A stretch of 64,000 nt of DNA, from the NCBI GenBank assembly GCA_022841985.1, contig JALHQL010000003.1, forward strand, positions 6,878 through 70,877, in the 5' to 3' direction. The notes below the pieces were generated by a model that made no database searches, was not told the DNA's origin, and was given only the letters and a program-made list of their open reading frames with translations. The position numbers were made by a program, and so were the translations under genes. The DNA comes from Minisyncoccota bacterium (GTDB taxonomy: Bacteria; Patescibacteriota; Minisyncoccia; Phycocordibacterales; Phycocordibacteraceae). Below are positions 2,055 through 31,964 of the stretch, piece after piece. The first letter of the stretch is position 1; every line of letters begins with the position of its first letter.

Positions 2055-2711
2055 CTAAACCCCTCGTTTGCCACGAGCGAGATTGGTAATAATAGGAAGA
2101 AAGGAGATGGCGATGATTACGAGCGCGATAGGGGCCACGTATTTCCAGCTATTTGGAATCACCGAGCCGAGAAGGAAACCAAAAAGCGTCATTCCTGTAC
2201 CCCATAAGATCGCACCGATAACGTTGTATGCAAGAAATTTCCTATAGGTCATAGAACCAGCGCCAGCAAGGATAGGCGCGATAGTACGTACGACGGGTAC
2301 AAATCGCGCAAGAATAATCGCCCGACCGCCATATTTCTGGTAAAAACGCTCAGTGCGTCTGAGATATTCTTGTTTGAAATACCATGAATCCTTACGGTCC
2401 TGGAGATGGTCTCCTACCTTTGCTCCAAACCAGTATCCAACCGAGTCGCCAAGTATCGCAGCGATCACAATGATCGTTATAAGAGGTCCTATAGAGAAAA
2501 AATTATTTGTCGCGAGAAGCCCTGCGACGAAAAGCAACGAGTCGCCGGGAAGGAACATGCCGACAAGAAGCCCGCTCTCAGCAAAAACGAGGAGGGCGAT
2601 ACCGATATAACCCCCTGTCTGCAGAATAGCAATCGGGTCGAGCTGTATACATGCCAAAAAGAAATTGATCATTCGGGTACAGTATACTAGAACAAATGGA
2701 ATCAGCACCAA
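2055..2711 (-). CDS. DedA family (VTT domain) membrane protein
   Basis: 218 aa. The DedA signature is GYIGIALLVFAESGLLVGMFLPGDSLLFVAGLL, with further TM helices. Confidence 0.75.
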   Translation of the reverse strand: MVLIPFVLVYCTRMINFFLACIQLDPIAILQTGGYIGIALLVFAESGLLVGMFLPGDSLLFVAGLLATNNFFSIGPLITIIVIAAILGDSVGYWFGAKVGDHLQDRKDSWYFKQEYLRRTERFYQKYGGRAIILARFVPVVRTIAPILAGAGSMTYRKFLAYNVIGAILWGTGMTLFGFLLGSVIPNSWKYVAPIALVIIAISFLPIITNLARGKRGV

Positions 2712-5458
2712 AATTATCTACGCCAGAAGATGAGCTTGCGTATCTCCGCGAGCAGGTGATGCGCAAAGAGGCAGAGCTCGCGAAAGGCGGGACTCGCGAG
2801 CGAGTCAAGATTATTTCTGAACAGATACACGAACATGCTGCGGCTCCTTCCGAAATGCTTACAAACGGATATCGCATGAACGAAGCTTCTGTAAGCGGCG
2901 CTGCAGACCAAATACTTGCCGAACTCAATCTTGGCGGTAGTGAACAGGCTATCAAGAGCTTGCAGCAAACTATAGAAAAAAAGGGAATCAAGAATGCGCT
3001 TTCCGTACTTGAAAAACTGCACGATCCGCATGTCGCAGACGACTTCCATCGGTATCTTGTACGTTACGTAGCTGCCGGCCTGCTTGCTCCCGGATACGAT
3101 GAGAAGGCGCCTCGTTTCCAGGCACTTAAAATGACCTTGTATGAAATTGCGCTTCCGGGGCCGAAAAATGCGGAGACACATGACCGCACCAAAACGCTCA
3201 AAGAACTTATTTCCGGAATGGAACAATTCTATGCCGGCCTTCTTTCGGTTGAAGATGCAAACTTGGGCGAGCCTCACTACTATGCACTCGAACTCGCAGT
3301 GCCCGCTGATAGTCCCGAGCTCCAATTTTATGCTGCGGTGCCAAATGGGAAGCGAAACCTTTTTGAAAAACAGCTCCTCGCCATATTCCCCGACGCACAC
3401 CTCGTGCCACAACCATCTGACTACAATATTTTCGCTTCAGGCGGCGTTTCGCTCGCCTCGACTGCAACTTTTACAGAGAATCCAGCCTTGCCGCTTAAAG
3501 ATTACACCGACTTCGATTATGACCCTATCAATGCGATTACAAATGCGTTTGCCAAGATAGAACACACGGGTGAAGGCGCTGCACTCCAAATCATCATCGC
3601 TCCAAAGGGAGAGCGGCATGTGAAGCATTATCGAAAAATTCTTCAAGCTTTACGCAAGGGAGAAAAGCATTCTTCGGCATTTAGCATTCCAGACACGGCT
3701 TTAGGCGCCTTTGCGCGCGATATCGGGCGAACTCTTTTTTCAAACAAGCCGAAAGATGTGGTGAAAGCAAAAGAGGCCGAGACGCGCCAGATCGAGGCAA
3801 ACAAAGCGTACATTGAACAGGTAGAAAAGAAGATTGCGGCCCCTATTGTTGGCGTGACGTTGCGGCTAGTAACTTCCTCCAAGGATGAACACACTGCCGA
3901 ACAAGTGCTCGGCGAGCTTGAGGCGGCGTTTAACCAGTTCGCGAATACGCAAGGGAATCGATTCACATTTGCGCGCGCCGCTCCGCGGCGCGCGCAAGAA
4001 ATTCTCAATGATTTTTCCTTCCGTTTGCCGGACGCGGCGCGTACCCTCCCGTTGTCGCTTCGCGAACTCACGACTATATATCACTTTCCACCATCCGGCA
4101 TCGAGAGCTCTCCGCACTTGAAGCAGGCACGCTTCACACATGCTCCTGCACCTCTTTCGTTACCGCAGTCAGGGGTGCTTCTTGGTATCAATAACTACCG
4201 CGGACAAGAAACACATCTTCATCTCGCTCCAGAGGATCGTTTGCGGCATCTTTACATCATTGGTCAAACAGGTACCGGTAAAACCGGGCTTATGAAGTCG
4301 ATGATCGTGCAAGATATTAAAAATGGCGAAGGTTGCTGCTTTATTGATCCACACGGCTCCGATATCTTAGACATTCTTGCTGCGATACCTCCTGAGCGCT
4401 ACAAAGATATAATTTATTTTGATCCTGCAGATATTTCTCGTCCATTTGGTCTTAATTTTCTCGAGTATGATCTTTCGCGTCCCGAACAGAAAACGTTCAT
4501 TGTGAATGAGTTATTGATGATCTTCCGCAGACTCTACGGCGATGTACCGGAGTCTATGGGACCGGCTTTTGAACAATATTTTCGCAATGCAACTCTGCTC
4601 GTGATGGAGGATCCGACGAGTGGTTCAACGATACTCGATATCGCTCGGGTTCTTTCTAATAAAGAGTTTCGAGAACAGAAACTTGCGAAGAGCATGAATC
4701 CTGTTGTGAACCAATTTTGGAGCGAAATTGCGACAAAAGCTGGCGGCGATGCCGCTCTTGAAAATATCGTCCCGTACATTACGAATAAATTTGACGATTT
4801 CACTGCCAACGACTTTATCCGCCCGATTGTGGGGCAGCAAGAGTCTTCCTTTAAATTTCGCGAGGTCATGGACACAAAGAAAATTCTCCTTATCAATCTT
4901 TCTAAAGGCCGTCTTGGTGAGAAAAATGCGAATCTTCTTGGTCTTATCATTGTCGGGAAGCTCTTCATGGCAGCACTCTCTCGTGCAGATAATCCGCGAG
5001 CGCCGTATCCACCGTTTTATCTCTATATCGACGAGTTCCAAAACGTTACGACCGATTCTATCCCCGGGATTCTCTCCGAGGCACGCAAATACAAGCTCGC
5101 GCTTACGGTAGCGCATCAGTTCCTCACCCAGATAGAGGAGAAGACGCGCAATGCGGTGTTTGGCAACGTCGGGAATATGGCGGTCTTCCGTACTGGCGAA
5201 GAGGATGCGGAGTTCTTCGCTAAGCAATTCGCCCCTGTTTTCGAAGCGCTTGATTTCGTCAATATAGAAAACTACAATGCGTATGTGAAAATTCTCGCGA
5301 AAGGCATTCCTCAAAAACCTTTTGACATGAAAACGCCGCCCTTGCCTCAAACAAATCTGGCTCAGATAGATGATCTTATTCACCTCTCATCGCTCACGTA
5401 TGGTCGCGACCGTGCTACAGTCGAAAATATGATTCGCGAGCGCTATCTTTCGAAATAA
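2696..5458 (+). CDS. FtsK/HerA/TraG-superfamily P-loop ATPase (DUF87/TraD-VirD4-like C-terminal half) with an ~480-aa uncharacterised soluble N-terminal region and no TM segment
   Basis: 920 aa. Walker A is IIGQTGTGKTGL. Walker B is YLYIDEFQNV. It is followed by ILSEARKYKLALTVAHQFLTQI, resembling the arginine-finger/Q-x-x-x-QL region of TraD/VirD4/FtsK ATPases. The N-terminal half has no match I recognise. Confidence 0.6.
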   Translation: MESAPKLSTPEDELAYLREQVMRKEAELAKGGTRERVKIISEQIHEHAAAPSEMLTNGYRMNEASVSGAADQILAELNLGGSEQAIKSLQQTIEKKGIKNALSVLEKLHDPHVADDFHRYLVRYVAAGLLAPGYDEKAPRFQALKMTLYEIALPGPKNAETHDRTKTLKELISGMEQFYAGLLSVEDANLGEPHYYALELAVPADSPELQFYAAVPNGKRNLFEKQLLAIFPDAHLVPQPSDYNIFASGGVSLASTATFTENPALPLKDYTDFDYDPINAITNAFAKIEHTGEGAALQIIIAPKGERHVKHYRKILQALRKGEKHSSAFSIPDTALGAFARDIGRTLFSNKPKDVVKAKEAETRQIEANKAYIEQVEKKIAAPIVGVTLRLVTSSKDEHTAEQVLGELEAAFNQFANTQGNRFTFARAAPRRAQEILNDFSFRLPDAARTLPLSLRELTTIYHFPPSGIESSPHLKQARFTHAPAPLSLPQSGVLLGINNYRGQETHLHLAPEDRLRHLYIIGQTGTGKTGLMKSMIVQDIKNGEGCCFIDPHGSDILDILAAIPPERYKDIIYFDPADISRPFGLNFLEYDLSRPEQKTFIVNELLMIFRRLYGDVPESMGPAFEQYFRNATLLVMEDPTSGSTILDIARVLSNKEFREQKLAKSMNPVVNQFWSEIATKAGGDAALENIVPYITNKFDDFTANDFIRPIVGQQESSFKFREVMDTKKILLINLSKGRLGEKNANLLGLIIVGKLFMAALSRADNPRAPYPPFYLYIDEFQNVTTDSIPGILSEARKYKLALTVAHQFLTQIEEKTRNAVFGNVGNMAVFRTGEEDAEFFAKQFAPVFEALDFVNIENYNAYVKILAKGIPQKPFDMKTPPLPQTNLAQIDDLIHLSSLTYGRDRATVENMIRERYLSK

Positions 5459-5461
5459 TCC

Positions 5462-8116
5462 ATGTCCGAAAAGCGGCCACGCGGGAAGAAAGCAGAATAT
5501 CCGGAATTCGATCCTAAGCCAGCTTTGGAAAAGCTCATTAATAAAGCATCAAAACCCTCCGGAAAGACAGCGGTAGAATCGAGTAGGGAAGCACATCAAG
5601 AAAAACAACCAGAAGCTCCAACTGAATCTCTGTCTGAGAAAGAACTTGAAAAACTCCTTCTGGACGCGGCTATTCGAAACATTGAGAGTCCAGATAGTTT
5701 TAAGGAAGTACTTAGGACGGTATTTGAGCGCACGGGTGGAATTTCTCCTGTTAATCTCGAAAGAATAAGAGCCTCCGCAAAACAGCATCTTGTCGGACCT
5801 GGTAATTATGATGAAGTTGAAAAATATATCAATGAGGAGGGATATAGATCGAAGGATCCCGTATCAAAGGAGCAGTCCAAAACTCCAGTTGAATCTCTAT
5901 CCAAGGAGCAATTGGGAAATCACATAATAAGTAGAGAAAACGATGCGTTTTTGCAGGAGTATCTTGGAAGATTTGATACTCTCAATTTCAAACCAGGATT
6001 TTTACCTGAAGAACTAGCTAAAGAGACAAATGATGCTCAACTTCAAATTTTTCTTAAAAAAATAAATGAGGAAAGAAAGCCTCTTGGAGTAACGTTTTTA
6101 AAATATATCAATGAACTGAGAGAGGCTGGCGCATCGCCTGAAGCAATTCAAACAATGATGGATGTAGCTGAAAAAAGGCTTGATACAGACATGTTTAAAA
6201 AACTGCAAGGCTTTGTTTACAATGAACAGGTGCATTACGAAGATAAAGAAAAAGGTAAAGAAGCAGTCGAAAAAAACGAAGTAGGACTCTCAAAGGGGGG
6301 TGTTGTCGCTGTCAGTCCAGAGTCAGGAGGCATTGTTCCAGAGAACCTTCCCCATGGTTCACCGGATGAGTTAGAAAAATTTGAAAAAGGCCTCATTGAA
6401 AGCGTGGGAAAATGGAAGAAAAAAAGAAATAAAATTGGTTCAAAAGAATCTCTCCAGGCGAATATGCCAATAGTTGCTGATGATCCTTCTATTGTTGATG
6501 CTGAATGGAGATCTGTATCGACACGGAGAATGGTAGAGGATGCTCGGGAGACTGTATCGTCTCCGCCACAGGATGAGCCCATCGTGTCACATACAGAAGT
6601 TCCCAAAGGTACTTTTTTTACTCCGGAGCAGGAAGAGCATCTATCAGGGGAGAGACATGAAGCATGGGAGCCTACGACACGCGCGGAGTTTATAGCGGAA
6701 TTACGTAATCTCATTTTCGGAGAAAGGAAGAGCAGAGGAAGTAATGAGCAGAACGAAGGACTAAAGACATATATTACAAAACGTTCGGAAGAATTGGGAG
6801 AAAAGGCGAAAGAATATGGTCCTATAGTCGCGGGATATATTGGTAATAAAATCGAGCGATACAATAAGTTGGGTTGGAAGACGAAGCTTGCTATCACCGG
6901 GGCTCTTGTGGCTGGAACCGCGCTTTCTGCAGGAGTTCCGGGAATTATCTCGGGAGGTTTTACTGCCGCCTTATGGAGCCAGCGTGCCATTGGAGCTATT
7001 GGCATGGGTATAAACAAGCGTAAAAAACTTGATGCCGAAATAGCCGCAAATCCGGAGCACAAACTTGCGGGGAAGTCTGAGTGGGAAAAAAATAAGCATG
7101 CAGCTTTGTACGCCACAGGATATATGTTGGCCACGTCAGGAGCCGTATACTTGGGCGTCGAAGGGTTAAAGGCGGCCGCAGAGAGCGAGTGGCTCGCCAA
7201 TATGCTCGGGCATCATTCAGATAGTTTAGAAATGTCTGAATCTTCAATCGAAGTTTTGCCGGACCCGACATCCGTACAAGAGTTAGATCCAACACTTTTT
7301 GCAGAAGAAAAAGGCAATGATCAATTGCGAATTCTTGCGGAGACTTCTTTAGCGAAACACTTGACGCCAAATGAGTGGGCTGTCCTCAATAATCATATAG
7401 CGAGCCTCACGCCTCGAGAGCGGTCTATTTTTGATCAGTTCACCACCGAATATTCAAACAAAATTAACGCTGGACAAGATGTTCCGGAACAAATTCTGAA
7501 CAATATGCCGGGTAATTCAGAAACACCCCCTCCCGATCTTTCTAGCCCAGAAGCGGCTACAATCGTTCCTGATACAGAGATTACAGAAAAATCTCTCGGC
7601 GCACAGTCGACAGATGCACCCTTCGGGTATGACCCTATTGATGGGCATGCTATGTCCGAACTGGAAGCTCAGAAGTTAGCTGATCTCAGGAACGCCATGC
7701 ACGAGGAAACCGCGAGAGAGGCGGGCGGAATGCCGCCTCGTCAGACGGAAGAAAAAGGATTTTTTGAAAAGCTCTTCGGTTCGTCTGACGAAAATCCGAC
7801 AGAGACAGTTGGTCAGTTCAGCATCGATTCTGTATCCGCGGCAGAACCACACATATATGCTGATGCGGACGGGCACTTATTCGCCCATGGCGGCTCAATC
7901 GAGGCTAGAATAGAGGAAATCCAAAAATTTCTCACTGAGAATCCAGATAAAATCGTATATGGCACAGATGACAATGGTCAATACCGGATTCCTTGGTATC
8001 TATATGAAGGTCGAGCACTCCCAAGTGAGCCGGTACGCACTAATGGCTTTTTCGGATTCGGGTCGGTGCTTATGGATGCGGCAAAGCCTGAAGAATTTGT
8101 AAAAAAGATTAAATAA
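5462..8116 (+). CDS. Large acidic, low-complexity hypothetical protein with a central two-helix membrane anchor
   Basis: 884 aa. Starts 3 nt after the ATPase stop. K/E-rich, with repeated KTPVESLSKEQL / EAPTESLSEKELEKL motifs. The hydrophobic pair is KTKLAITGALVAGTALSAGVPGIISGGFTAALW...YATGYMLATSGAVYLGV. No recognisable domain. Confidence 0.5.
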   Translation: MSEKRPRGKKAEYPEFDPKPALEKLINKASKPSGKTAVESSREAHQEKQPEAPTESLSEKELEKLLLDAAIRNIESPDSFKEVLRTVFERTGGISPVNLERIRASAKQHLVGPGNYDEVEKYINEEGYRSKDPVSKEQSKTPVESLSKEQLGNHIISRENDAFLQEYLGRFDTLNFKPGFLPEELAKETNDAQLQIFLKKINEERKPLGVTFLKYINELREAGASPEAIQTMMDVAEKRLDTDMFKKLQGFVYNEQVHYEDKEKGKEAVEKNEVGLSKGGVVAVSPESGGIVPENLPHGSPDELEKFEKGLIESVGKWKKKRNKIGSKESLQANMPIVADDPSIVDAEWRSVSTRRMVEDARETVSSPPQDEPIVSHTEVPKGTFFTPEQEEHLSGERHEAWEPTTRAEFIAELRNLIFGERKSRGSNEQNEGLKTYITKRSEELGEKAKEYGPIVAGYIGNKIERYNKLGWKTKLAITGALVAGTALSAGVPGIISGGFTAALWSQRAIGAIGMGINKRKKLDAEIAANPEHKLAGKSEWEKNKHAALYATGYMLATSGAVYLGVEGLKAAAESEWLANMLGHHSDSLEMSESSIEVLPDPTSVQELDPTLFAEEKGNDQLRILAETSLAKHLTPNEWAVLNNHIASLTPRERSIFDQFTTEYSNKINAGQDVPEQILNNMPGNSETPPPDLSSPEAATIVPDTEITEKSLGAQSTDAPFGYDPIDGHAMSELEAQKLADLRNAMHEETAREAGGMPPRQTEEKGFFEKLFGSSDENPTETVGQFSIDSVSAAEPHIYADADGHLFAHGGSIEARIEEIQKFLTENPDKIVYGTDDNGQYRIPWYLYEGRALPSEPVRTNGFFGFGSVLMDAAKPEEFVKKIK

Positions 8117-24216: not shown

Positions 24217-24255
24217 GGGTTGCGCAAAAGCTAAAGTAGCCTTAGGGTGCTTATA

Positions 24256-25353
24256 ATGTTGAAAATAGGAATTGTCGGATTGCCAAACGTGGGGAAATCC
24301 ACGCTTTTTAATGCTCTTACGAAAGCGAGCGTGCCGGCCGAGAATTATCCTTTTTGCACGATCGATCCTTCAGTTGGAGTGGTCGGCGTTCCTGATGCCC
24401 GACTCGCAATGCTCGCTAAATTTTCGTCGAGCGCAAAAGTCATTCCCGCTGCAATAGAATTCGTCGATATCGCTGGACTAGTGAAAGGTGCCGCAACAGG
24501 CGAAGGCTTAGGGAATCAATTTCTTGCGAATATTCGTGAGACCGATGCAATCCTCCAAGTTGTTCGTTTTTTTGACGACCCGAACGTGCTACATGTTGAT
24601 GCAAATATTGAGCCCTACAAAGACATTGAGATCATAAATATGGAGCTCGTACTCGCCGATGCGGAACAGGTGCGTAAACGTCGCGATAAACTCGCCCGCG
24701 ATATAAAAGCTGGCGACAAAGACGCAAGCGTCGAGGATGCGGCGCTTGCTAAGCTTGAAGAAGGCTTTTCAGCGGGAAAGCTTGCGCTTCACGCGGGACT
24801 CTCGTCGGAAGAGCAGAAGCGCGTCGAGTATTTGAATCTTCTCACGATGAAGCCGATCCTCTACGCACTCAACCGGAAAAGTGGAGGGAAAAATCTGGAT
24901 GAGCTTAAAGACGGTCGTGCACAACGAGCGTACGATCTCATCAAGACGCTCGGGGGGCGTTATGTTTTCGTGGATGCTGCTACCGAGCGCGAACTGAACG
25001 ATGTCTCCGACGTCGATCGTGCCGGATTCCGCGAGGAGCTCGGAGTTTCTGAAGATGGGCTTGCCGGTCTCATCAGAGGTGCGTATGAGACACTCGGCCT
25101 TATTTCATTCTTTACGACGGGAGCTGATGAAACACGTGCATGGACGATCAAGGAGGGAAGTACGGCGCCGATAGCTGGTTCAGCTATCCATAATGATTTT
25201 TTGGAGAAGTTCATTCGCGCCGAAGTTGTTGCCACTGATGACTTGCTTGCTGCCGGCAGTTACGCAACTGCACGCGAAACAGCAAAAGTTCGTACCGAAG
25301 GGAAGGAATACGTTGTCAAAGATGGTGACGTTATGGTGTTTCTCCACGGGTGA
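24256..25353 (+). CDS. ychF: Redox-regulated ATPase YchF (Obg-family GTPase fold)
   Basis: [22 protein letters not shown] (G1), DIAGLVKGA (G3), a coiled insertion and a C-terminal TGS domain ([17 protein letters not shown]). The start is either 24247 or 24256. Confidence 0.85.
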
Positions 25354-25389
25354 TTTTTTTTAAGGCCTGTTTATGGTATAATCCACCTC

Positions 25390-26334
25390 ATGGATAAACC
25401 AAAAACAACAGCAAAAGATTTTTTCCTATGGGCAGGAGCGATGATTACGTTCTATTGGAGCATCATCGCTACAATTTTACTTATACTCAATTACATTGAC
25501 TATACGTTTCCAAACGCGCTTTCGTATCTGCCGGCCAATCCGTATGAGAGCGGCATTAGCAATGAGATGGCATCGATTATCGTTCTGCTTCCGCTCTACA
25601 TGTTCCTTATGCATCTTATACGGAAAGATGCGGCTCGTGACCCTTCAAGGAACGAAATCTGGGTACGCCGATGGGCAATCATACTGACGCTCTTTGTTGC
25701 AGGTGTCGCGATAGCGATCGATCTCATCATGCTTCTCACCACATTCTTAAGCGGAGAGGAATTGACGATAGCATTTTTGCTTAAAGTGCTTGTTGTTCTT
25801 CTTGTTGCAGCTGGAGTCTTCATGCATTTCATCGCTGATTTGAAAGGGTACTGGGATATGTTTCCAATGCGCAAGCAAGCAGTGAGTGTCAGTGTGGCAG
25901 TGCTCGCGGTTGTGGTGATAGGCGCAGGCTTCTTTATCGTCGGTACGCCAGGGCAAGCTCGCCTCGCACGCTTTGATGTGCAAAAGGTAAATGACTTAGT
26001 AAGTATGCAGTACCAGGTTACCTGTTATTTCCAGGCAAAGCAGAAGTTGCCTGCCACACTTGCCGATCTCAATAATCCTCTTGGGTGTGGCTCCACACCA
26101 GTTGATCCTCAAACCAATGAATCGTATGTATATGAGGCGACGGGCAAGCTCTCATTCAAACTATGCGCAGTATTTAATGCAGAAGGTCGCGGGAATCAAG
26201 ACATGTATCTTGAACGCACTATACCAATGCCAGTGGGCAGCAAAGGAATACAGCAAGATAATTGGCAGCACGATAGCGGGCAAGTCTGTTTTGATCGAAC
26301 TATTGATCCAAGCTTCTTCCCACCGCTCAAGTAA
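25390..26334 (+). CDS. Hypothetical membrane protein (5 TM helices plus a C-terminal extracytoplasmic Cys-containing domain)
   Basis: 314 aa. Hydrophobic helices in the first ~190 aa. The C-terminal ~120 aa carries 4 Cys. No recognised domain. Confidence 0.4.
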   Translation: MDKPKTTAKDFFLWAGAMITFYWSIIATILLILNYIDYTFPNALSYLPANPYESGISNEMASIIVLLPLYMFLMHLIRKDAARDPSRNEIWVRRWAIILTLFVAGVAIAIDLIMLLTTFLSGEELTIAFLLKVLVVLLVAAGVFMHFIADLKGYWDMFPMRKQAVSVSVAVLAVVVIGAGFFIVGTPGQARLARFDVQKVNDLVSMQYQVTCYFQAKQKLPATLADLNNPLGCGSTPVDPQTNESYVYEATGKLSFKLCAVFNAEGRGNQDMYLERTIPMPVGSKGIQQDNWQHDSGQVCFDRTIDPSFFPPLK

Positions 26335-26367: not shown

Positions 26368-29202
26368 ATGGGGTATGACCACAGCGAAATAGAGAAAAAA
26401 GCCCAAGAGAAATGGGCGACCTTGAATCTGTATGAGACAGATCTCAAAGATGACTCAAAAGAGTCGTACTATCTTCTTTTTGAGTTCCCTTATCCCTCAG
26501 GCGATCTACATATCGGGCATTGGTATGCCTACGCGATAACCGATGTCTACGCGCGTCTATTGCGTATGCGCGGGAAAAACGTTCTATTTCCGATAGGGTT
26601 TGATGCATTCGGTTTGCCAGCGGAAAATGCCGCGATGCGGAATGGCGCCGATCCAGCCATATGGACAAGAGCGAATATCGAGCGGATGAAGACACAGATC
26701 CGCTCGATGGGCACCTCGGTCGATTGGTCGAAAGAAATCATTACCTGCGATCCAAGTTACTACCAGTGGACGCAATGGCTTTTTGGGAAGCTTTTCGAAC
26801 ATAAACTCGCGGAGCATCGCGAGGCAGCGGTCAAATGGTGTCCGAAAGACCAAACAGTACTCGCCAACGAGCAGGTCGTTGACGGTTGCTGCGAACGATG
26901 TGGCACGGCGGTCGAGGAGAAACGGCTTACGCAGTGGTTTCTTAAGATTACTGACTACGCGGAGCGGCTTCTCACAGGCCTCGATGCGCTTTCGTGGCGC
27001 GAGGAAATAAAAGAGGCGCAGCGGGCCTGGATTGGGAAGAGCGAGGGCGCCTACCTCACGTTTCCAATTGTCAGTCGCGACGAGAAGATAAAAGTATTTA
27101 CCACACGACCGGACACTCTCTTCGGCGCGACCTACGTCGTACTTGCACCCGAACATCCTCTTATTGAAGGGTTTCGTAAATCCCTCATGAATGCGGACGA
27201 GGTATTTGAATATATCAAAGCGACGACGAAAAAGACCGAACGGGAACGCAGTGAAAATAAAGAGAAAACAGGTGTGAAGCTCGAAGGTATTTCAGCTATC
27301 AATCTCGCAACTAAAGAAGAGATTCCGGTGTATATTGCCGACTACGTCCTCGCGTCCTATGGTACTGGCGCCGTCATGGCCGTTCCTGCGCACGATGAAC
27401 GCGACTTCGAATTCGCAAGAGAAATGAAGCTTCCTATCAAGGAAGTAATACTGCCTGAACGCATCGACAAGAGAAATCCACCACTACCAGGCAAGGAGAG
27501 TATTGCGCGTAGAAATGTACATGCATTTGTTCGCGATCCAAAGACCGGGAAGATCTTATGCTTGCGCTGGAAAAAACATCCATGGATTACCTTTCCTATG
27601 GGCGGAATTGAGGAAGGGGAAGATGTCATCGGGGCTGCAAAACGAGAAATCAAGGAAGAAACCGGCTATACGCATCTTAAAAATCCGAGAGTGCTTGGTG
27701 GAGAAGTGCGTGCAGAATATTTTGCTGCTCATAAGGACCAGAATAGGATCTCATTTACAACACTTGTCGCATTTGATCTGAAAGACGACAAGCAAGTGGC
27801 TATTGCATCCGAGGAATCAGATGCTCATGAAGTGTTTTGGGCTGATCCTAGTGAAGTAACCGCTGCGCACATGACACACGCTGAGATGGATGTATGGCTC
27901 ACTCGACTTGCACATGAAAAAGAAGGTTCTGCGTTTACGGAATCAGGGGTATTGGCCAACTCAGGTGAGTTTAATGGCAGACGAAGTGAGGAGGTGAAAT
28001 GGGAAATTGTGCAATTCGTCGGTGGAGAAAGAACGACCCAGTACCGCCTGCGTGATTGGCTCATTTCTCGACAGCGCTATTGGGGTTGTCCGATACCAAT
28101 TGTTTACGACCCTGAAGGGAAGCCGCACGTTGTCCCCCCTGAGCATCTGCCATGGCTCTTGCCGACTGATGTGGACTTCAAGCCCACAGGTAAAGCGCCG
28201 CTCGCTTCTTCAAAAGAATTACAGGAGCGCGTTACACGTATTTTTGGCGAAGGATGGACACCGGAATATGACACGCTCGATACGTTTATGGACTCTTCAT
28301 GGTATTTTCTCCGCTATCTTGATCCGAAAGACGCTCATGATTTCTCTGATAGTGTGCTTATGAAGAAGTGGCTGCCAATCAACCGATACTCCGGGGGAAG
28401 TGAGCATACTACGATGCACCTCCTCTATGCGCGTTTCTTCATGAAAGCGCTCTACGATCTCGCACTTGTGCCGGTTGAGGAACCATTTATCGAGCGCTTC
28501 AATCGCGGACTCATCATGGGTCCCGATGGACAGAAAATGAGCAAGTCAAAAGGGAATGTCATTAATCCAGATGATTTCGTGAAAGAATATGGTGCGGATG
28601 CAGTGCGTATGTACCTCGCCTTTATTGGTCCTTACAACGAGCCCGGAAGTTATCCTTGGAATCTAGACGGCGTTGCGGCTATACGAAAATTTCTTGAACG
28701 AATTATACGTCTTGTCGAGCGAGTACAGGACATGAGCGAAATTCGTTCGACGCTGGCACTGGCACTTGCCCGGGCGAGCCACAAAGTTTCGGAAGACGGT
28801 GACAAGTTTAAGTTCAATACCAGTGTCGCAGCTCTTATGATACTTATGAATGAATTTGAGACTGCCACGATTGTTCCGAAATCTGCTTTTGCCTCTCTTG
28901 TGATCATGCTTGCGCCTTTTGCTCCGCATCTTGCTGAGCATCTTTGGGAGCGAATTGGAGGAAAGGGGAGTGTGCATCAAGCCGCATGGCCTGTCTTTCC
29001 TCAAGTAATCACTAATGAATACGAAGTCGTAGTGCAGGTAAACGGCAAACGACGTGGTTCGATACTGCTGGCTATCGACGCGACTGAATCAGATGCTGTT
29101 ATTGCCGCTCGCGCAGTGCCGACTGTAGAGGTATCTCTTGGTGGAAAGGAGCCTCGACGCGTTGTCTATGTAGCGGGTAAAATCGTCAATCTTGTGGTGT
29201 AA
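26368..29202 (+). CDS. leuS: Leucine--tRNA ligase carrying an inserted NUDIX hydrolase domain
   Basis: Start at ATG 26368. The track uses GTG 26335. Motifs are HIGH (PSGDLHIGHWYAY), CP1 editing domain (TTRPDTLFGATYVVLAPEHPL ... GTGAVMAVPAHDERDFEFA), KMSKS (GQKMSKSKGNV) and the C-terminal tRNA-binding region. A perfect Nudix box GGIEEGEDVIGAAKREIKEETGY lies inside a ~140-aa insert between the editing domain and VLANSGEFNG. Confidence 0.9.
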   Translation: MGYDHSEIEKKAQEKWATLNLYETDLKDDSKESYYLLFEFPYPSGDLHIGHWYAYAITDVYARLLRMRGKNVLFPIGFDAFGLPAENAAMRNGADPAIWTRANIERMKTQIRSMGTSVDWSKEIITCDPSYYQWTQWLFGKLFEHKLAEHREAAVKWCPKDQTVLANEQVVDGCCERCGTAVEEKRLTQWFLKITDYAERLLTGLDALSWREEIKEAQRAWIGKSEGAYLTFPIVSRDEKIKVFTTRPDTLFGATYVVLAPEHPLIEGFRKSLMNADEVFEYIKATTKKTERERSENKEKTGVKLEGISAINLATKEEIPVYIADYVLASYGTGAVMAVPAHDERDFEFAREMKLPIKEVILPERIDKRNPPLPGKESIARRNVHAFVRDPKTGKILCLRWKKHPWITFPMGGIEEGEDVIGAAKREIKEETGYTHLKNPRVLGGEVRAEYFAAHKDQNRISFTTLVAFDLKDDKQVAIASEESDAHEVFWADPSEVTAAHMTHAEMDVWLTRLAHEKEGSAFTESGVLANSGEFNGRRSEEVKWEIVQFVGGERTTQYRLRDWLISRQRYWGCPIPIVYDPEGKPHVVPPEHLPWLLPTDVDFKPTGKAPLASSKELQERVTRIFGEGWTPEYDTLDTFMDSSWYFLRYLDPKDAHDFSDSVLMKKWLPINRYSGGSEHTTMHLLYARFFMKALYDLALVPVEEPFIERFNRGLIMGPDGQKMSKSKGNVINPDDFVKEYGADAVRMYLAFIGPYNEPGSYPWNLDGVAAIRKFLERIIRLVERVQDMSEIRSTLALALARASHKVSEDGDKFKFNTSVAALMILMNEFETATIVPKSAFASLVIMLAPFAPHLAEHLWERIGGKGSVHQAAWPVFPQVITNEYEVVVQVNGKRRGSILLAIDATESDAVIAARAVPTVEVSLGGKEPRRVVYVAGKIVNLVV

Positions 29203-30617: not shown

Positions 30618-31964
30618 ATGTTATCGTTCTTTCAGGATATTTTTACAGAAAAATTCGGTATTCGCTTCACTGCGTGGCCGCTTTTTATATTTGGCGCGAT
30701 ACTTCTCGCAAATGCCTTCCTATGGATGCCCGATACCGTTTCTCTCGCTATCTCCCTCGCCCTCTCCCTTGCGCCAGTATGGTTGCCGTTTCTACTTGTC
30801 GGTGGAGCAGTGAAGCTTTGGTACATCTGGCAACGAGGGGAGTTCATTGCTTCCCAGGGATATGTACTTCTTGAAATAAAACCGCCGCGCAATCTCGTAA
30901 AAACACCGCTTGCCATGGAGCCATTCCTTTCGAGTTTGCATCTTACGGGAGGCGAATCGGATTGGTATAAGCTTCTTATCGGCGGCACGCGACCTAATTG
31001 GTCGCTTGAAATAGCCTCTCTTGAGGGGCAGGTACATTTTTTCGTATGGACGCGCATAAAACTTCGCGAGATCGTCGAAGCGCAGTTATATGCGCAATAT
31101 CCGGGAGTACAGGTAACCGAAGCTCCTGATTACAGCCGGCTCATTTCTGCGACGCCAGAAGAGTGGAATATTTGGGGTTGTGATTATAAAAAAGAGAGAA
31201 AAGATCCTTTGCCAATTAGGACGTATGTTCAATACGGGCTCGACAAAGTCCAGAAGGAGCCGGAACAGATTGATCCTCTTGCGAATATTATTGAGTTCAT
31301 GAGTTCCATTGGGAAGGGCGAGTACCTTTGGCTCCAGTTTGTCATACGCGCTCACAAAGGCGAGAAATACAACAAACTCAACAAAGATGGTGATGCATAT
31401 ACTTGGAAAGATGAGGCCAAGAAACTTATCGAAGAAGTTCGCGAAGAAACGCACGAAAAAGTTACTGATCCAGAGACTGGTAAAGAGGTGCTCGGATTTC
31501 CTAATCCCACCAAGGGCCAATTGGATAAAATATCCGCCATAGAAGAAAACATCGCGAAACTCGCTTTTGATGTCGGCGTGCGTTGTATATACCTTACTCG
31601 ACCGAAAAACTTCAGTCTTGCGAGGGTAATGCACATGATTACTCTCTTTAAACCATTTAACAGCGAGGTATGGAACAGTATCAATTCAACTGGCTGGTTG
31701 AAAAATTTTGCGAATTTTCCATGGGAATATCATGCGGATAAAACTAAGGATCGTTTTCGTCGGAGACTTGTCGAAGTCTATCGTCGCCGACAATTCTTCT
31801 ACGATCCCTTTTTTAAGGGAAGTTTGTCCCCGCATAAAATAATGGTAATGAGTACTGAGGAGCTTGCGACCGTCTTCCATATTCCATCGAGTTCTATTGA
31901 AGCACCGGGACTCACGCGCATACGTTCGGCGACCGGCAAAGCCCCTGTTAATCTTCCGATGTAA
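30618..31964 (+). CDS. Hypothetical membrane protein (two N-terminal TM helices plus a ~380-aa soluble domain)
   Basis: 448 aa. N-terminal FGIRFTAWPLFIFGAILLANAFLW...LAISLALSLAPVWLPFLLVGGAV. The remainder is charged and helical. No recognised domain. Confidence 0.45.
   Translation: MLSFFQDIFTEKFGIRFTAWPLFIFGAILLANAFLWMPDTVSLAISLALSLAPVWLPFLLVGGAVKLWYIWQRGEFIASQGYVLLEIKPPRNLVKTPLAMEPFLSSLHLTGGESDWYKLLIGGTRPNWSLEIASLEGQVHFFVWTRIKLREIVEAQLYAQYPGVQVTEAPDYSRLISATPEEWNIWGCDYKKERKDPLPIRTYVQYGLDKVQKEPEQIDPLANIIEFMSSIGKGEYLWLQFVIRAHKGEKYNKLNKDGDAYTWKDEAKKLIEEVREETHEKVTDPETGKEVLGFPNPTKGQLDKISAIEENIAKLAFDVGVRCIYLTRPKNFSLARVMHMITLFKPFNSEVWNSINSTGWLKNFANFPWEYHADKTKDRFRRRLVEVYRRRQFFYDPFFKGSLSPHKIMVMSTEELATVFHIPSSSIEAPGLTRIRSATGKAPVNLPM

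What the first reader, a model, noticed from the sequence alone, without database searches (positions are those of the whole stretch)
27480..27900. Leucyl-tRNA synthetase with a complete NUDIX hydrolase domain inserted after the CP1 editing domain
Inside leuS (26368..29202) there is an extra block of about 140 aa. It lies between the end of the CP1 editing domain (...VPAHDERDFEFAREMKLPIKEV) and the resumption of the catalytic core (VLANSGEFNG...YRLRDWLISRQRYWGCPIP). In E. coli LeuRS these two points are about 20 aa apart. The insert contains a perfect Nudix box, GGIEEGEDVIGAAKREIKEETGY, which matches GX5EX7REUXEEXGU. It is flanked by Nudix-fold beta-strand-like sequence (HAFVRDPKTGKILCLRWKKHPWITFPMG; EVRAEYFAAH...EVFWADPSEV). 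The HIGH and KMSKS motifs and the editing-domain Asp are intact, so the synthetase is probably functional. I do not know of a described aaRS::Nudix fusion. A pyrophosphohydrolase beside an aminoacylation/editing site could hydrolyse mischarged or non-cognate aminoacyl-adenylates. It could also cleave dinucleoside polyphosphates (Ap4A is made by class I/II aaRS side reactions), or decap or modify tRNA/RNA.
Basis: partly seen in the sequence, partly recalled or inferred. Interest (0 to 1): 0.8.

Follow-up and report, generated by a model that had tools for sequence, protein, structure and literature searches.

The report
Nudix hydrolase nested inside leucyl-tRNA synthetase
A complete, apparently active Nudix pyrophosphatase is built into a surface loop of the proofreading domain of this bacterium's leucyl-tRNA synthetase, and the same enzyme family recurs inside or right next to leucyl-tRNA synthetase genes across ultra-small (Patescibacteria/CPR) microbes, a partnership I could not find described in the literature I could search and whose purpose is unknown.

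Summary

It is not an assembly chimera:
- 79 of the 80 best GTDB loci and 105 of the 120 nearest homologues share the architecture.
- Non-synonymous divergence is no higher in the insert than in the LeuRS body.

The module is accessory and modular:
- An orthologue in identical synteny lacks it.
- Relatives carry one to three copies at four or more sites and of several Nudix types.
- Some relatives also host Ser-hydrolase, HAD, Ham1/ITPase or ASCH domains.

The link to LeuRS does not depend on fusion. Free-standing family members are encoded directly beside bacterial-type and archaeal-type leuS. A few archaeal-type ProRS carry the same domain.

The substrate is unknown; no named Nudix subfamily is matched. 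My best reading is an active nucleotide pyrophosphatase working alongside LeuRS on dinucleoside polyphosphates or non-canonical NTPs. Hydrolysis of aminoacyl-adenylates is unlikely. I found no published description. Rating: new variant of a known kind; interest about 0.68.

The parts
26368..29202 (+). leuS, bacterial-type leucyl-tRNA synthetase, 944 aa, hosting the insert
   Evidence: ORF. TIGR00396 898.5 bits. 1h3n phmmer E 7e-198. Identical NCBI protein P0153.
26509..26520 (+). HIGH motif (H48-I-G-H51) of the synthetic site
   Evidence: Read from the sequence. H48, G50 and H51 are invariant in 104 homologues.
27022..27450 (+). CP1 editing domain, part before the insert (aa 219-361), with the Thr-rich motif TTRPDT (aa 245-250, nt 27100-27117) and the editing Asp D343 (nt 27394-27396)
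   Evidence: PF13603 aa 219-367, profile 1-146 of 185. T245, T246, R247, T250 and D343 are invariant.
27451..27927 (+). Inserted Nudix module, aa 362-520. It equals a whole free-standing family protein: N-terminal strand, Nudix core and C-terminal helix.
   Evidence: Boundaries from insert-less orthologues. Model pLDDT 95.6. Free-standing proteins such as P0028 and P0004 include the N-terminal 'ID..NPP..GK'-like strand.
27451..27507 (+). N-terminal strand/linker LPERIDKRNPPLPGKESIA (aa 362-380)
   Evidence: Strand E3-5 in the model. The motif is conserved in type I copies and in free-standing P0028.
27508..27861 (+). Nudix core (aa 381-498)
27601..27669 (+). Nudix box GGIEEGEDVIGAAKREIKEETGY (aa 412-434). 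The metal-binding residues are E427, E430 and E431.
   Evidence: Read from the sequence. At this insertion site E16 is conserved in 173 of 174 copies, E19 in 171 of 174 and E20 in 174 of 174.
27718..27747 (+). Family-specific motif Y451-F-A-A-H-K456-D-Q-N459-R460 downstream of the box, in the region where the literature places the X-loop (its 3D position was not checked here, no coordinates)
   Evidence: K456, N459 and R460 are conserved in at least 94% of copies at every site. The role of the X-loop is described in PMC5389931.
27862..27927 (+). C-terminal part of the module (aa 499-520), including the helix AEMDVWLTRLAHE that leads back into CP1
   Evidence: Helix H146-156 in the insert model and H507-515 in the full model.
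27928..28047 (+). Resumption of CP1 and the catalytic core (AFTESGVLANSGEFNG...YRLRDW)
   Evidence: Query 521-718 aligns to T. thermophilus 375-579.
28534..28548 (+). KMSKS motif (aa 723-727)
   Evidence: Read from the sequence. K723, M724, S725 and K726 are invariant.
28765..29079 (+). Anticodon-binding domain
   Evidence: PF08264 aa 800-904.
24247..26334 (+). Conserved upstream neighbours: YchF GTPase (24247..25353) and a DUF5671 membrane protein (25390..26334). In relatives, free-standing Nudix genes sit between DUF5671 and leuS.
   Evidence: Pfam. Synteny in L081, the P0028 contig, L094 and L083.

Best explanation
The window encodes a working bacterial-type LeuRS. A complete, catalytically competent Nudix pyrophosphohydrolase is nested in a surface loop of its CP1 editing domain. 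The module equals a whole small free-standing Nudix protein and belongs to a distinct Nudix subfamily of Patescibacteria. This subfamily is a partner of LeuRS: it is either inserted into LeuRS, at four or more sites and in one to three copies, or encoded as a separate gene directly beside leuS. Rarely it is inserted into an archaeal-type ProRS. It is accessory, because close orthologues lack it and keep the same editing and synthetic residues. Inferred mechanism: the domain binds divalent metal through E427, E430 and E431. It hydrolyses a free nucleotide with a polyphosphate bridge, in trans, next to an enzyme that consumes ATP and makes adenylates. The favoured substrates are dinucleoside polyphosphates (Ap4A/ApnN, made when an aminoacyl-adenylate reacts with an NTP) or non-canonical purine NTPs. 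It would thus be a nucleotide clean-up activity tethered to, and co-expressed with, LeuRS. Shown: the domain, its integrity, its constraint, its distribution and its genomic linkage to leuS. Inferred: catalytic activity, action in trans, and the substrate class. My probabilities: active hydrolase about 0.85; selected linkage to LeuRS rather than mere tolerance about 0.6; ApnN about 0.3; damaged-NTP sanitiser about 0.25.
For: Domain identity and fold.
Catalytic glutamates are essentially invariant in 241 copies at all sites.
Further invariant residues include basic and aromatic ones (R381, W401, W406, K456, N459, R460, E483, H487, W491), which suit binding of a polyphosphate and a base.
Purifying selection: insert dN is 0.06 against 0.10-0.16 for the body, and dN/dS is about 0.03-0.05 where measurable.
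LeuRS motifs are intact and invariant with or without the insert.
Distribution: at least 356 tblastn-confirmed relatives among GTDB species representatives, and 79 of the best 80 loci are LeuRS-embedded. 105 of the 120 nearest homologues carry PF00293.
Host specificity: among the best 150 clusters of an exhaustive HMMER search, every long protein I classified is a LeuRS, except one ProRS (P0120), one double-Nudix protein (P0087) and one tandem-Nudix protein (P0070). The rest are short proteins or fragments.
Linkage without fusion, three cases. P0028 lies between DUF5671 and leuS, with its stop 2 nt before the leuS start. P0088 lies 2 nt upstream of an insert-less bacterial leuS. P0111 lies 35 nt downstream of an archaeal-type leuS.
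House-cleaning theme: Ham1/ITPase and HAD domains are nested in related LeuRS. One free-standing member follows fpg. MazG and a second Nudix lie near a ProRS::Nudix gene.
An aromatic pair at +17/+18 after the box lies in the region where ApnA hydrolases carry their signature Tyr.
Against: No substrate is shown. Every named Nudix family in NCBIfam scores far below its cut-off (RppH 26.6 against 116; MutT 15 against 97.9). The closest structure, 2azw, has undetermined function.
The +17 position is Tyr in only about 55% of copies and Phe in the rest.
From my own knowledge, LeuRS is not a prominent Ap4A producer compared with LysRS or PheRS.
The insert is absent from close orthologues, so whatever it does is dispensable.
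Ser-hydrolase and ASCH inserts do not fit a purely nucleotide theme.
Two of the free-standing members examined are not next to any aaRS gene.
I could not measure where the Nudix active site sits relative to the LeuRS sites, because model coordinates are not exposed. Action in trans rather than in cis is therefore untested.
Confidence: 0.55

Rival explanations
1. Passenger model. The Nudix domain is an ordinary house-cleaning enzyme with no mechanistic tie to leucylation, like the Ham1, HAD, Ser-hydrolase and ASCH inserts in relatives. In these small genomes LeuRS is a large, constitutively expressed protein that tolerates insertions, and small single-domain enzymes have been nested in it. Linkage to leuS reflects co-expression and the history of local duplication and recombination.
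For: Several unrelated hydrolase domains are nested in related LeuRS at several sites. Presence and absence vary among orthologues in identical synteny. Nudix-core identity is uncorrelated with LeuRS-body identity (r = -0.08), and bodies 80-95% identical can carry Nudix cores only 22% identical, which fits cassette turnover. Several Nudix types occur at several sites. One free-standing member sits beside fpg.
Against: Host specificity is extreme. No other large protein family appears among the best 150 clusters except ProRS, which is also an aaRS. A free-standing member lies next to an archaeal-type leuS, which cannot be explained by shared history with the bacterial gene.
Confidence: 0.22
2. 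RNA-end model. The domain is an RppH-like RNA 5'-pyrophosphohydrolase or decapping enzyme. It acts on tRNA-Leu or other RNAs bound to LeuRS, for example on 5'-triphosphate or Np4N-capped ends.
Against: The RppH models score 26.6 bits against a cut-off of 116, and only the box region aligns. Mature tRNAs normally carry a 5'-monophosphate. Free-standing members exist that are unlinked to any aaRS. Copies at very different LeuRS sites cannot all face the tRNA 5' end.
Confidence: 0.1
3. The Nudix domain hydrolyses non-cognate or mischarged aminoacyl-adenylates and so adds a pre-transfer proofreading step beside CP1.
For: The domain is located inside the editing domain. The association is with LeuRS, and rarely with ProRS; from my own knowledge both are editing synthetases.
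Against: Aminoacyl-adenylates lack the diphosphate bridge that Nudix enzymes bind and cleave (PMC5389931). From my own knowledge, the known aminoacyl-AMP hydrolases are HIT proteins. The canonical editing residues are fully conserved with and without the insert. Copies also sit outside CP1, in the ZN2 region, and can be separate genes.
Confidence: 0.05
4. Non-catalytic model. The Nudix fold is used as a nucleotide sensor, or as a structural or interaction module that modulates LeuRS, as in NrtR-type Nudix regulators.
For: A minority type (type II, 45 of 338 copies) has lost box residues E7 (to Q, M or L) and R15 (to K, A or M). Non-enzymatic Nudix proteins are known (PMC5389931).
Against: The window's copy is type I with a perfect box. 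E16, E19 and E20 are invariant even in type II. The complete catalytic constellation is under strong constraint.
Confidence: 0.06
5. Artefact. The insert is an assembly chimera or a frameshifted mis-join.
For: None was found. The window appears to come from a metagenome-assembled genome, where chimeras can occur.
Against: The reading frame is continuous and composition is homogeneous. The identical protein is in NCBI and the same architecture occurs in hundreds of independent assemblies. Codon-level constraint is strong. The full-length model is confident, pLDDT 87.8 overall and above 90 in the insert.
Confidence: 0.01

Closest known systems
Bacterial-type LeuRS (T. thermophilus 1H3N/2V0C; E. 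coli 4AQ7/3ZGZ)
   Same: The whole synthetase body: HIGH, KMSKS, a ZN1-like CxxC, the CP1 editing domain with its Thr-rich motif and Asp, and the anticodon-binding and C-terminal domains.
   Different: 159 aa replace a loop of about 12 residues in CP1. The leucine-specific domain (T. thermophilus about 580-636) is absent, and the ZN2 cysteines are absent.
Free-standing Nudix hydrolase 2AZW (E. faecalis MutT/nudix family protein, UniProt Q836H1)
   Different: Only 15-16% identity. Its function is undetermined. It is not associated with an aaRS as far as I know.
Nudix ApnA hydrolases and RppH (E. coli RppH, T. thermophilus Ndx1, human NUDT2, lupin Ap4A hydrolase)
   Different: Family models are not met. 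The family has its own H-K-x-x-N-R signature. The signature Tyr is Tyr or Phe here.
IleRS with an N-acetyltransferase domain (NCBIfam NF040702 ileS_w_GNAT), and more generally aaRSs with extra domains (ProRS INS/YbaK editing insert, eukaryotic GST/WHEP/EMAPII appendages)
   Same: A class I aaRS that carries an additional, independently folding domain or enzyme. This is precedent that such synthetases tolerate extra modules. The existence of the NCBIfam model is shown; the rest is my own knowledge.
   Different: The domain here is a Nudix hydrolase nested within CP1. It varies in copy number, site and type, and it can alternatively be encoded as a neighbouring gene.
NadM-Nudix bifunctional enzyme (NMN adenylyltransferase fused to an ADP-ribose pyrophosphatase; NCBIfam NF003790/NF003786)
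   Same: An adenylyl-transferring enzyme fused to a Nudix hydrolase. The Nudix part shows weak full-length similarity (17.6-17.9 bits over about 108 residues).
   Different: That fusion is end to end, not nested. The ADPRase signature Pro is absent here. The score is far below the cut-off of about 400.

Membership tests
Nudix hydrolase superfamily (Pfam PF00293) | Score above Pfam's gathering threshold over the whole domain | tested here: met
   57.8 bits (62.9 for the insert alone) against 21.1; profile positions 3-128 of 134.
Nudix hydrolase superfamily (Pfam PF00293) | Nudix box GX5EX7REUXEEXGU with the metal-binding glutamates | tested here: met
   GGIEEGEDVIGAAKREIKEETGY, aa 412-434. E16, E19 and E20 are conserved in at least 98% of 241 family copies.
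Nudix hydrolase superfamily (Pfam PF00293) | Nudix alpha/beta/alpha sandwich fold | tested here: met
Nudix hydrolase superfamily (Pfam PF00293) | Metal-dependent pyrophosphohydrolase activity | not testable with these tools
   Requires an enzyme assay.
Bacterial-type leucyl-tRNA synthetase (TIGR00396 leuS_bact) | Equivalog model score above the cut-off | tested here: met
   898.5 bits against 548.4, in two stretches split by the insert.
Bacterial-type leucyl-tRNA synthetase (TIGR00396 leuS_bact) | HIGH and KMSKS class I signature motifs | tested here: met
   H48-IGH51 and K723-MSKS727, invariant in 104 homologues.
Bacterial-type leucyl-tRNA synthetase (TIGR00396 leuS_bact) | CP1 editing domain with the Thr-rich motif and the conserved Asp | tested here: met
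   PF13603 E 1.3e-58. TTRPDT at aa 245-250 and D343 are invariant.
RNA pyrophosphohydrolase RppH (NCBIfam NF001934-NF001938) | Equivalog model score above the cut-off | tested here: not met
   Best 26.6 bits against a cut-off of 116. Only about 35 residues around the box align.
MutT 8-oxo-dGTPase (TIGR00586, NF008044) | Equivalog model score above the cut-off | tested here: not met
   15.0 bits against 97.9, and 14.4 against 148.
Nudix ApnA (Ap4A) hydrolases | Conserved Tyr in the X-loop downstream of the box (Dunn et al. 1999, as cited in PMC5389931) | tested here: inconclusive
   The window has Y451 at +17. Across copies at this site the position is Tyr in 96 and Phe in 72, and +18 is Phe in 121 and Tyr in 45. 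Structural equivalence to the signature Tyr was not verified, because no coordinates are available.
Nudix ApnA (Ap4A) hydrolases | Significant sequence similarity to characterised members | tested here: not met
   PDB phmmer gives E 0.00097 for lupin Ap4A hydrolase 1f3y, over the box only (residues 45-75). 3i7u gives E 0.045.
ADP-ribose pyrophosphatases | Conserved Pro about 15-16 residues downstream of the box | tested here: not met
   Positions +15 and +16 are A449 and E450. The only Pro, P440 at +6, is not conserved.
NADH diphosphatases (NudC type) | SQPWPFPxS motif downstream of the box | tested here: not met
   The motif is absent from the insert sequence. NF001299 scores 16.1 bits against 158.
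Intein (a protein-splicing insertion, considered because of the presence/absence pattern in an essential gene) | N-terminal Cys/Ser, and a C-terminal His-Asn followed by Cys/Ser/Thr | tested here: not met
   The insert starts L362-P363 and ends ...E517-G-S520 followed by A521. There is no His-Asn and no splicing nucleophile. The whole insert folds as a Nudix domain.
Known anti-phage defence proteins (PADLOC) | Match to a defence-system model | tested here: inconclusive
   Only a weak generic Nudix match to the candidate family PDC-S07 (24.2 bits, E 5e-6). There is no defence gene context.

The most novel reading that the evidence does not exclude
This Nudix subfamily is a dedicated, previously unrecognised partner enzyme of LeuRS, and occasionally of ProRS, in ultra-small symbiotic prokaryotes. 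It occurs with bacterial-type and archaeal-type synthetases. It acts on a product or substrate of the synthetase itself, for example ApnN made from Leu-AMP, an ATP analogue, or the tRNA end. It thereby adds a new quality-control or signalling step to aminoacylation. The module moves as an exchangeable cassette between insertion sites and between genomes.
Probability: 0.25. Interest if true: 0.85.

Novelty: new variant of a known kind. Interest (0 to 1): 0.68.

Why it matters
Aminoacyl-tRNA synthetases are among the best-studied enzymes, and LeuRS CP1 is a drug target and a model for proofreading. A second, unrelated enzyme nested inside CP1 would be a new layer of aaRS biology. It is conserved across a large bacterial radiation, and the same family is also encoded beside leuS as a separate gene. 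It would bear on an old question: how cells deal with the nucleotide by-products of aminoacylation, such as Ap4A and related alarmones, and with damaged ATP. It would also show how extremely reduced genomes package house-cleaning functions. The natural states (fused, split and absent) in otherwise syntenic loci give ready-made controls for experiments. There is a practical point as well. The insert makes NCBI's pipeline name these proteins 'class I tRNA ligase family protein' instead of leucine--tRNA ligase. This can make LeuRS look missing in CPR genome reconstructions.

Tried and rejected
(1) Assembly chimera: rejected.
(3) Intein: no splicing residues.
(4) Assignment to a named Nudix subfamily: all fail. 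I tested RppH, MutT, NudE, NudI, YtkD, NadM-Nudix, DHNTPase, the NADH and ADPR pyrophosphatases, and the CoA pyrophosphatase upstream motif by eye.
(5) Function from the closest structure: 2azw has undetermined function.
(6) Distances between the Nudix site and the LeuRS sites in the full-length model: not possible, because model coordinates are not exposed in /data.
(7) AFDB fold search: the library was unavailable.
(8) Source record of the window: the identical NCBI protein P0153 is not on record in the contig index. The organism is inferred only from relatives, which are Kaiserbacteria and Paceibacterota.
(9) Target-site repeats at the insert junctions: none detectable at 76% flank identity.
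(10) dN/dS: synonymous sites are saturated in most comparisons, so I relied on dN and on the few finite ratios.
(11) Defence or phage affiliation: only weak generic Nudix matches.
(12) Other Nudix genes in the window: none.
I scanned the 30 longest instead.
(14) Host organism of ProRS::Nudix: the neighbourhoods are not decisive.
Full report
OBSERVATION

The + strand carries one uninterrupted ORF ending at 29202. The ATG at 26368 gives 944 aa. This matches the start of all homologues and an identical protein already in NCBI (P0153).

The protein is a bacterial-type LeuRS: TIGR00396 scores 898.5 bits against a cut-off of 548.4, and phmmer against T. thermophilus LeuRS 1h3n gives E 7e-198. Pfam finds a full-length NUDIX domain at aa 381-508, with profile positions 3-128 of 134, E 1.6e-15 and 57.8 bits against a cut-off of 21.1. 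The box GGIEEGEDVIGAAKREIKEETGY (aa 412-434) fits GX5EX7REUXEEXGU exactly.

TWO CORRECTIONS

First, the boundaries. Close relatives without the insert have a loop of about 8 residues (for example EGTTEQLP) between 'LPIxxV[IV]' and '[PA]YTGxGVLxNSGEF'. The window has aa 362-520 there, which is nt 27451-27927.

Second, the position. The insert is inside CP1, not after it. The Pfam editing-domain match breaks off at profile position 146 of 185. In T. thermophilus LeuRS the insert replaces the residues between 362 and 375. From my own knowledge, the editing domain of that enzyme spans about 224-417.

HIGH (aa 48-51), KMSKS (aa 723-727), the Thr-rich editing motif (T245, T246, R247, T250) and D343 are present. 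They are invariant across 104 homologues whether or not the homologue has the insert.

NOT AN ARTEFACT

- GC content is even across the junctions.
- A scan of one genome per GTDB species found at least 356 tblastn-confirmed relatives of the insert. In 79 of the best 80 loci a Nudix-bearing ORF was found. These are long LeuRS ORFs: 71 are at least 900 aa, and the rest are cut by contig ends.
- The loci come mostly from MAGs labelled Patescibacteria, Paceibacterota, or Kaiser-, Wildermuth-, Taylor-, Moran-, Uhr- or Buchananbacteria. A few carry other labels that I did not verify.
- 105 of the 120 nearest full-length homologues carry PF00293.
- Against the closest relatives (L001, L002), non-synonymous divergence of the insert is 0.06. 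That is lower than in the LeuRS body (0.10-0.16) and in CP1 (0.17). dN/dS is about 0.03-0.05 where synonymous sites are not saturated.

THE MODULE IS ACCESSORY AND MODULAR

Presence and absence. Fifteen of the 120 nearest homologues lack the insert. Examples are P0173 (792 aa) and P0188, named 'leucine--tRNA ligase [Ca. Kaiserbacteria]'. They are 76-85% identical to the window protein, closer than most insert-bearing relatives. The locus of P0188 (L081) has exactly the window's gene order: YchF, DUF5671, leuS, a Sigma70_r4/HARE-HTH protein, a 448-aa protein and YceG. The DNA alignment shows a clean in-frame indel.

Sites and copy number. An exhaustive HMMER search of 1.84 billion cluster representatives with the insert found 436 clusters at E<=1e-3. 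Mapping the best 150 plus the GTDB loci gave 241 domain copies:
- about 174 at the window's site (q~360);
- 27 before or at the start of CP1 (q~208 and q~237);
- 2 in the ZN2 region (q~580-633);
- 38 with no LeuRS flanks, a mix of true free-standing proteins, fragments and copies in other proteins.
Tandem pairs occur, and some proteins carry three copies (P0007, P0010).

Nudix types. After adding the site-C copies of the homologues, the set held 338 copies falling into several types. Type I has a canonical box, includes the window's copy and has 217 members. Type II has 45 members in which box residue E7 has become Q, M or L and R15 has become K, A or M. Each type occurs at several sites.

Turnover. 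Among LeuRS that are 60-95% identical in the body, Nudix-core identity averages 42% and is uncorrelated with body identity (r = -0.08). Bodies 80-95% identical can hold cores only 22% identical. This points to cassette replacement or to birth-and-death of paralogous copies. Within the window's immediate clade, however, the insert is inherited vertically.

Other nested domains. Related LeuRS also carry other small enzymes:
- Ser_hydrolase/alpha-beta hydrolase, in 7 of the 30 longest GTDB LeuRS;
- HAD_2;
- Ham1/ITPase (P0060, E 3e-58);
- ASCH, in one protein.

THE LINK TO LeuRS DOES NOT DEPEND ON FUSION

Complete free-standing proteins of about 160 aa exist. They include the N-terminal strand that looks like a 'linker' in the window protein, so the insert equals a whole small protein. 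Their contexts:
- P0028 lies between DUF5671 and leuS, in the window's syntenic block, with its stop 2 nt before the leuS start. That leuS also has an internal Nudix.
- P0088 lies 2 nt upstream of a bacterial leuS whose editing domain is uninterrupted (PF13603 positions 1-185 of 185). This is the split counterpart of the fusion.
- In L083 a free-standing copy starts immediately after the DUF5671 stop codon, and the contig ends inside the gene.
- P0111 lies 35 nt downstream of an archaeal-type leuS (TIGR00395, 895 bits).
- P0035 follows fpg (mutM) and is not near any aaRS gene.
- P0039 sits beside another Nudix gene and is not near any aaRS gene.

Among the best 150 clusters, every long protein I classified is a LeuRS, with three exceptions: one ProRS (P0120), one double-Nudix protein (P0087) and one tandem-Nudix protein (P0070). 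The ProRS is archaeal-type, with the order class II core, HGTP_anticodon, NUDIX, ProRS-C_1 (P0120). Only 5 of its 120 nearest relatives have the insert. The nearest named relatives are DPANN archaea, but the host organism is not established.

WHAT THE DOMAIN PROBABLY DOES

The metal-binding glutamates of the box are conserved in 173, 171 and 174 of the 174 copies at the window's site. They are conserved in all copies at the other LeuRS sites. Further invariant positions are R381, W401, W406, K456, N459, R460, E483, H487 and W491. This is a basic and aromatic constellation that would suit a polyphosphate chain and a base.

The motif [YF][FY]-A-x-H-K-x-x-N-R lies downstream of the box, in the region where the 'X-loop' carries the known specificity signatures. 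Those signatures are a Tyr for ApnA hydrolases, a Pro for ADPRases and SQPWPFPxS for NADH diphosphatases (PMC5389931). The Pro and the NADH motif are absent. The Tyr position is Tyr or Phe.

I commit to the following. The domain is an active pyrophosphohydrolase (probability about 0.85). Its linkage to LeuRS is selected rather than merely tolerated (about 0.6). It acts on free nucleotides connected with the adenylation reaction. The candidates are dinucleoside polyphosphates formed from aminoacyl-adenylates (about 0.3) and non-canonical purine NTPs (about 0.25). The second candidate is suggested by the Ham1 and HAD co-inserts and by the fpg and MazG neighbours.

- Those compounds lack the diphosphate bridge that Nudix enzymes cleave.
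- The canonical editing residues are equally conserved with and without the insert.
- Copies also work from other LeuRS sites or as separate genes.

WHAT IS KNOWN

Seven full-text searches found no description of an aaRS-Nudix fusion or of hydrolase inserts in CPR LeuRS. The Nudix-clan review (PMC5389931) has no mention of tRNA synthetases. AARS Online (PMC11580382) and the catalogue of aaRS insertion modules (PMC10810186) do not mention Nudix.

The proteins are in public databases with Pfam hits. NCBI names them 'class I tRNA ligase family protein', and JGI names them 'leucyl-tRNA synthetase'. Precedents exist for aaRSs with extra domains, for example the NCBIfam model ileS_w_GNAT. Fusion of an adenylyltransferase to a Nudix domain is also known (NadM-Nudix).

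I therefore rate this a new variant of a known kind. The sequences are present in databases, but the feature is undescribed in the literature I could search.

LIMITS

- No coordinates were available, so I could not place the Nudix active site relative to the LeuRS sites.
- The AFDB library was unavailable.
- Organism labels of many MAGs are unverified.
- The counts of leuS-adjacent free-standing genes rest on seven cases.

Noticed in passing
Relatives P0007, P0010, P0009, P0018, P0017, P0040, P0041; loci L066, L068, L080, L021, L008: LeuRS relatives carry two or three Nudix copies at different sites: tandem pairs before CP1 at about q208, a copy at about q237, tandem pairs at q360, and a copy in the ZN2 region. 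Some copies have degenerate box residues E7 and R15.
   Followed up: yes
P0198, P0086, P0104, P0246, P0016, P0060; 7 of the 30 longest GTDB LeuRS loci (alignment A4): Other whole enzyme domains are nested in related LeuRS: Ser_hydrolase/alpha-beta hydrolase, HAD_2, Ham1/ITPase (E 3e-58) and one ASCH domain. LeuRS of this clade appears to be a hub for inserted small hydrolases.
   Followed up: partly
P0120, P0273-P0276; loci L099 (5593-7524) and L100 (3720-5744): The same Nudix family is inserted between the anticodon-binding and C-terminal domains of an archaeal-type ProRS. The nearest named ProRS relatives are DPANN archaea. The host organism is not established.
   Followed up: partly
L097 4646-5137 (also L098); L094 3451-3936 (also L095, L096); the contig of P0028 (JGI 3300071358): Free-standing family Nudix genes lie directly beside leuS, 2 to 35 nt away. 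This holds for bacterial-type leuS with or without an internal Nudix, and for an archaeal-type leuS.
   Followed up: yes
L089 4016-5513 (also L090, L091): One free-standing family member (P0035) lies 4 nt downstream of fpg (mutM). This is a GO-system-like pairing that hints at a MutT-like role for at least some members.
   Followed up: partly
window 26368-29202 and homologues: NCBI names insert-bearing LeuRS 'class I tRNA ligase family protein', or even 'alpha/beta fold hydrolase' (P0244). Insert-less relatives are named 'leucine--tRNA ligase'. The insert seems to break automated naming, and this could make LeuRS look absent in CPR genome surveys.
   Followed up: no
window 28200-28550 (aa about 610-727): This LeuRS lacks the leucine-specific domain (T. 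thermophilus about 580-636 has no counterpart; query 718 joins 723). It also lacks the ZN2 cysteines (SSKELQERVTRIFGEGWTPEYDT in place of CPKCGGPAKRDT).
   Followed up: no
window 2696-5458 and 5462-8116 (+): Two adjacent large ORFs (920 and 884 aa) have no Pfam match at E<=1e-5.
   Followed up: no
window 30618-31964 (+): A 448-aa ORF with no Pfam hit at E<=1e-5 here. A same-length protein at the syntenic position in L081 (not compared directly) is recorded as PF26449 DUF8128. It belongs to the conserved leuS neighbourhood, after the Sigma70_r4/HARE-HTH gene and before the YceG-position gene.
   Followed up: no
P0070 (379 aa) and P0087 (467 aa): P0070 consists of at least three tandem copies of the family Nudix with no LeuRS parts. 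P0087 joins a generic Nudix to a family Nudix. I did not determine whether these are complete proteins or fragments.
   Followed up: no
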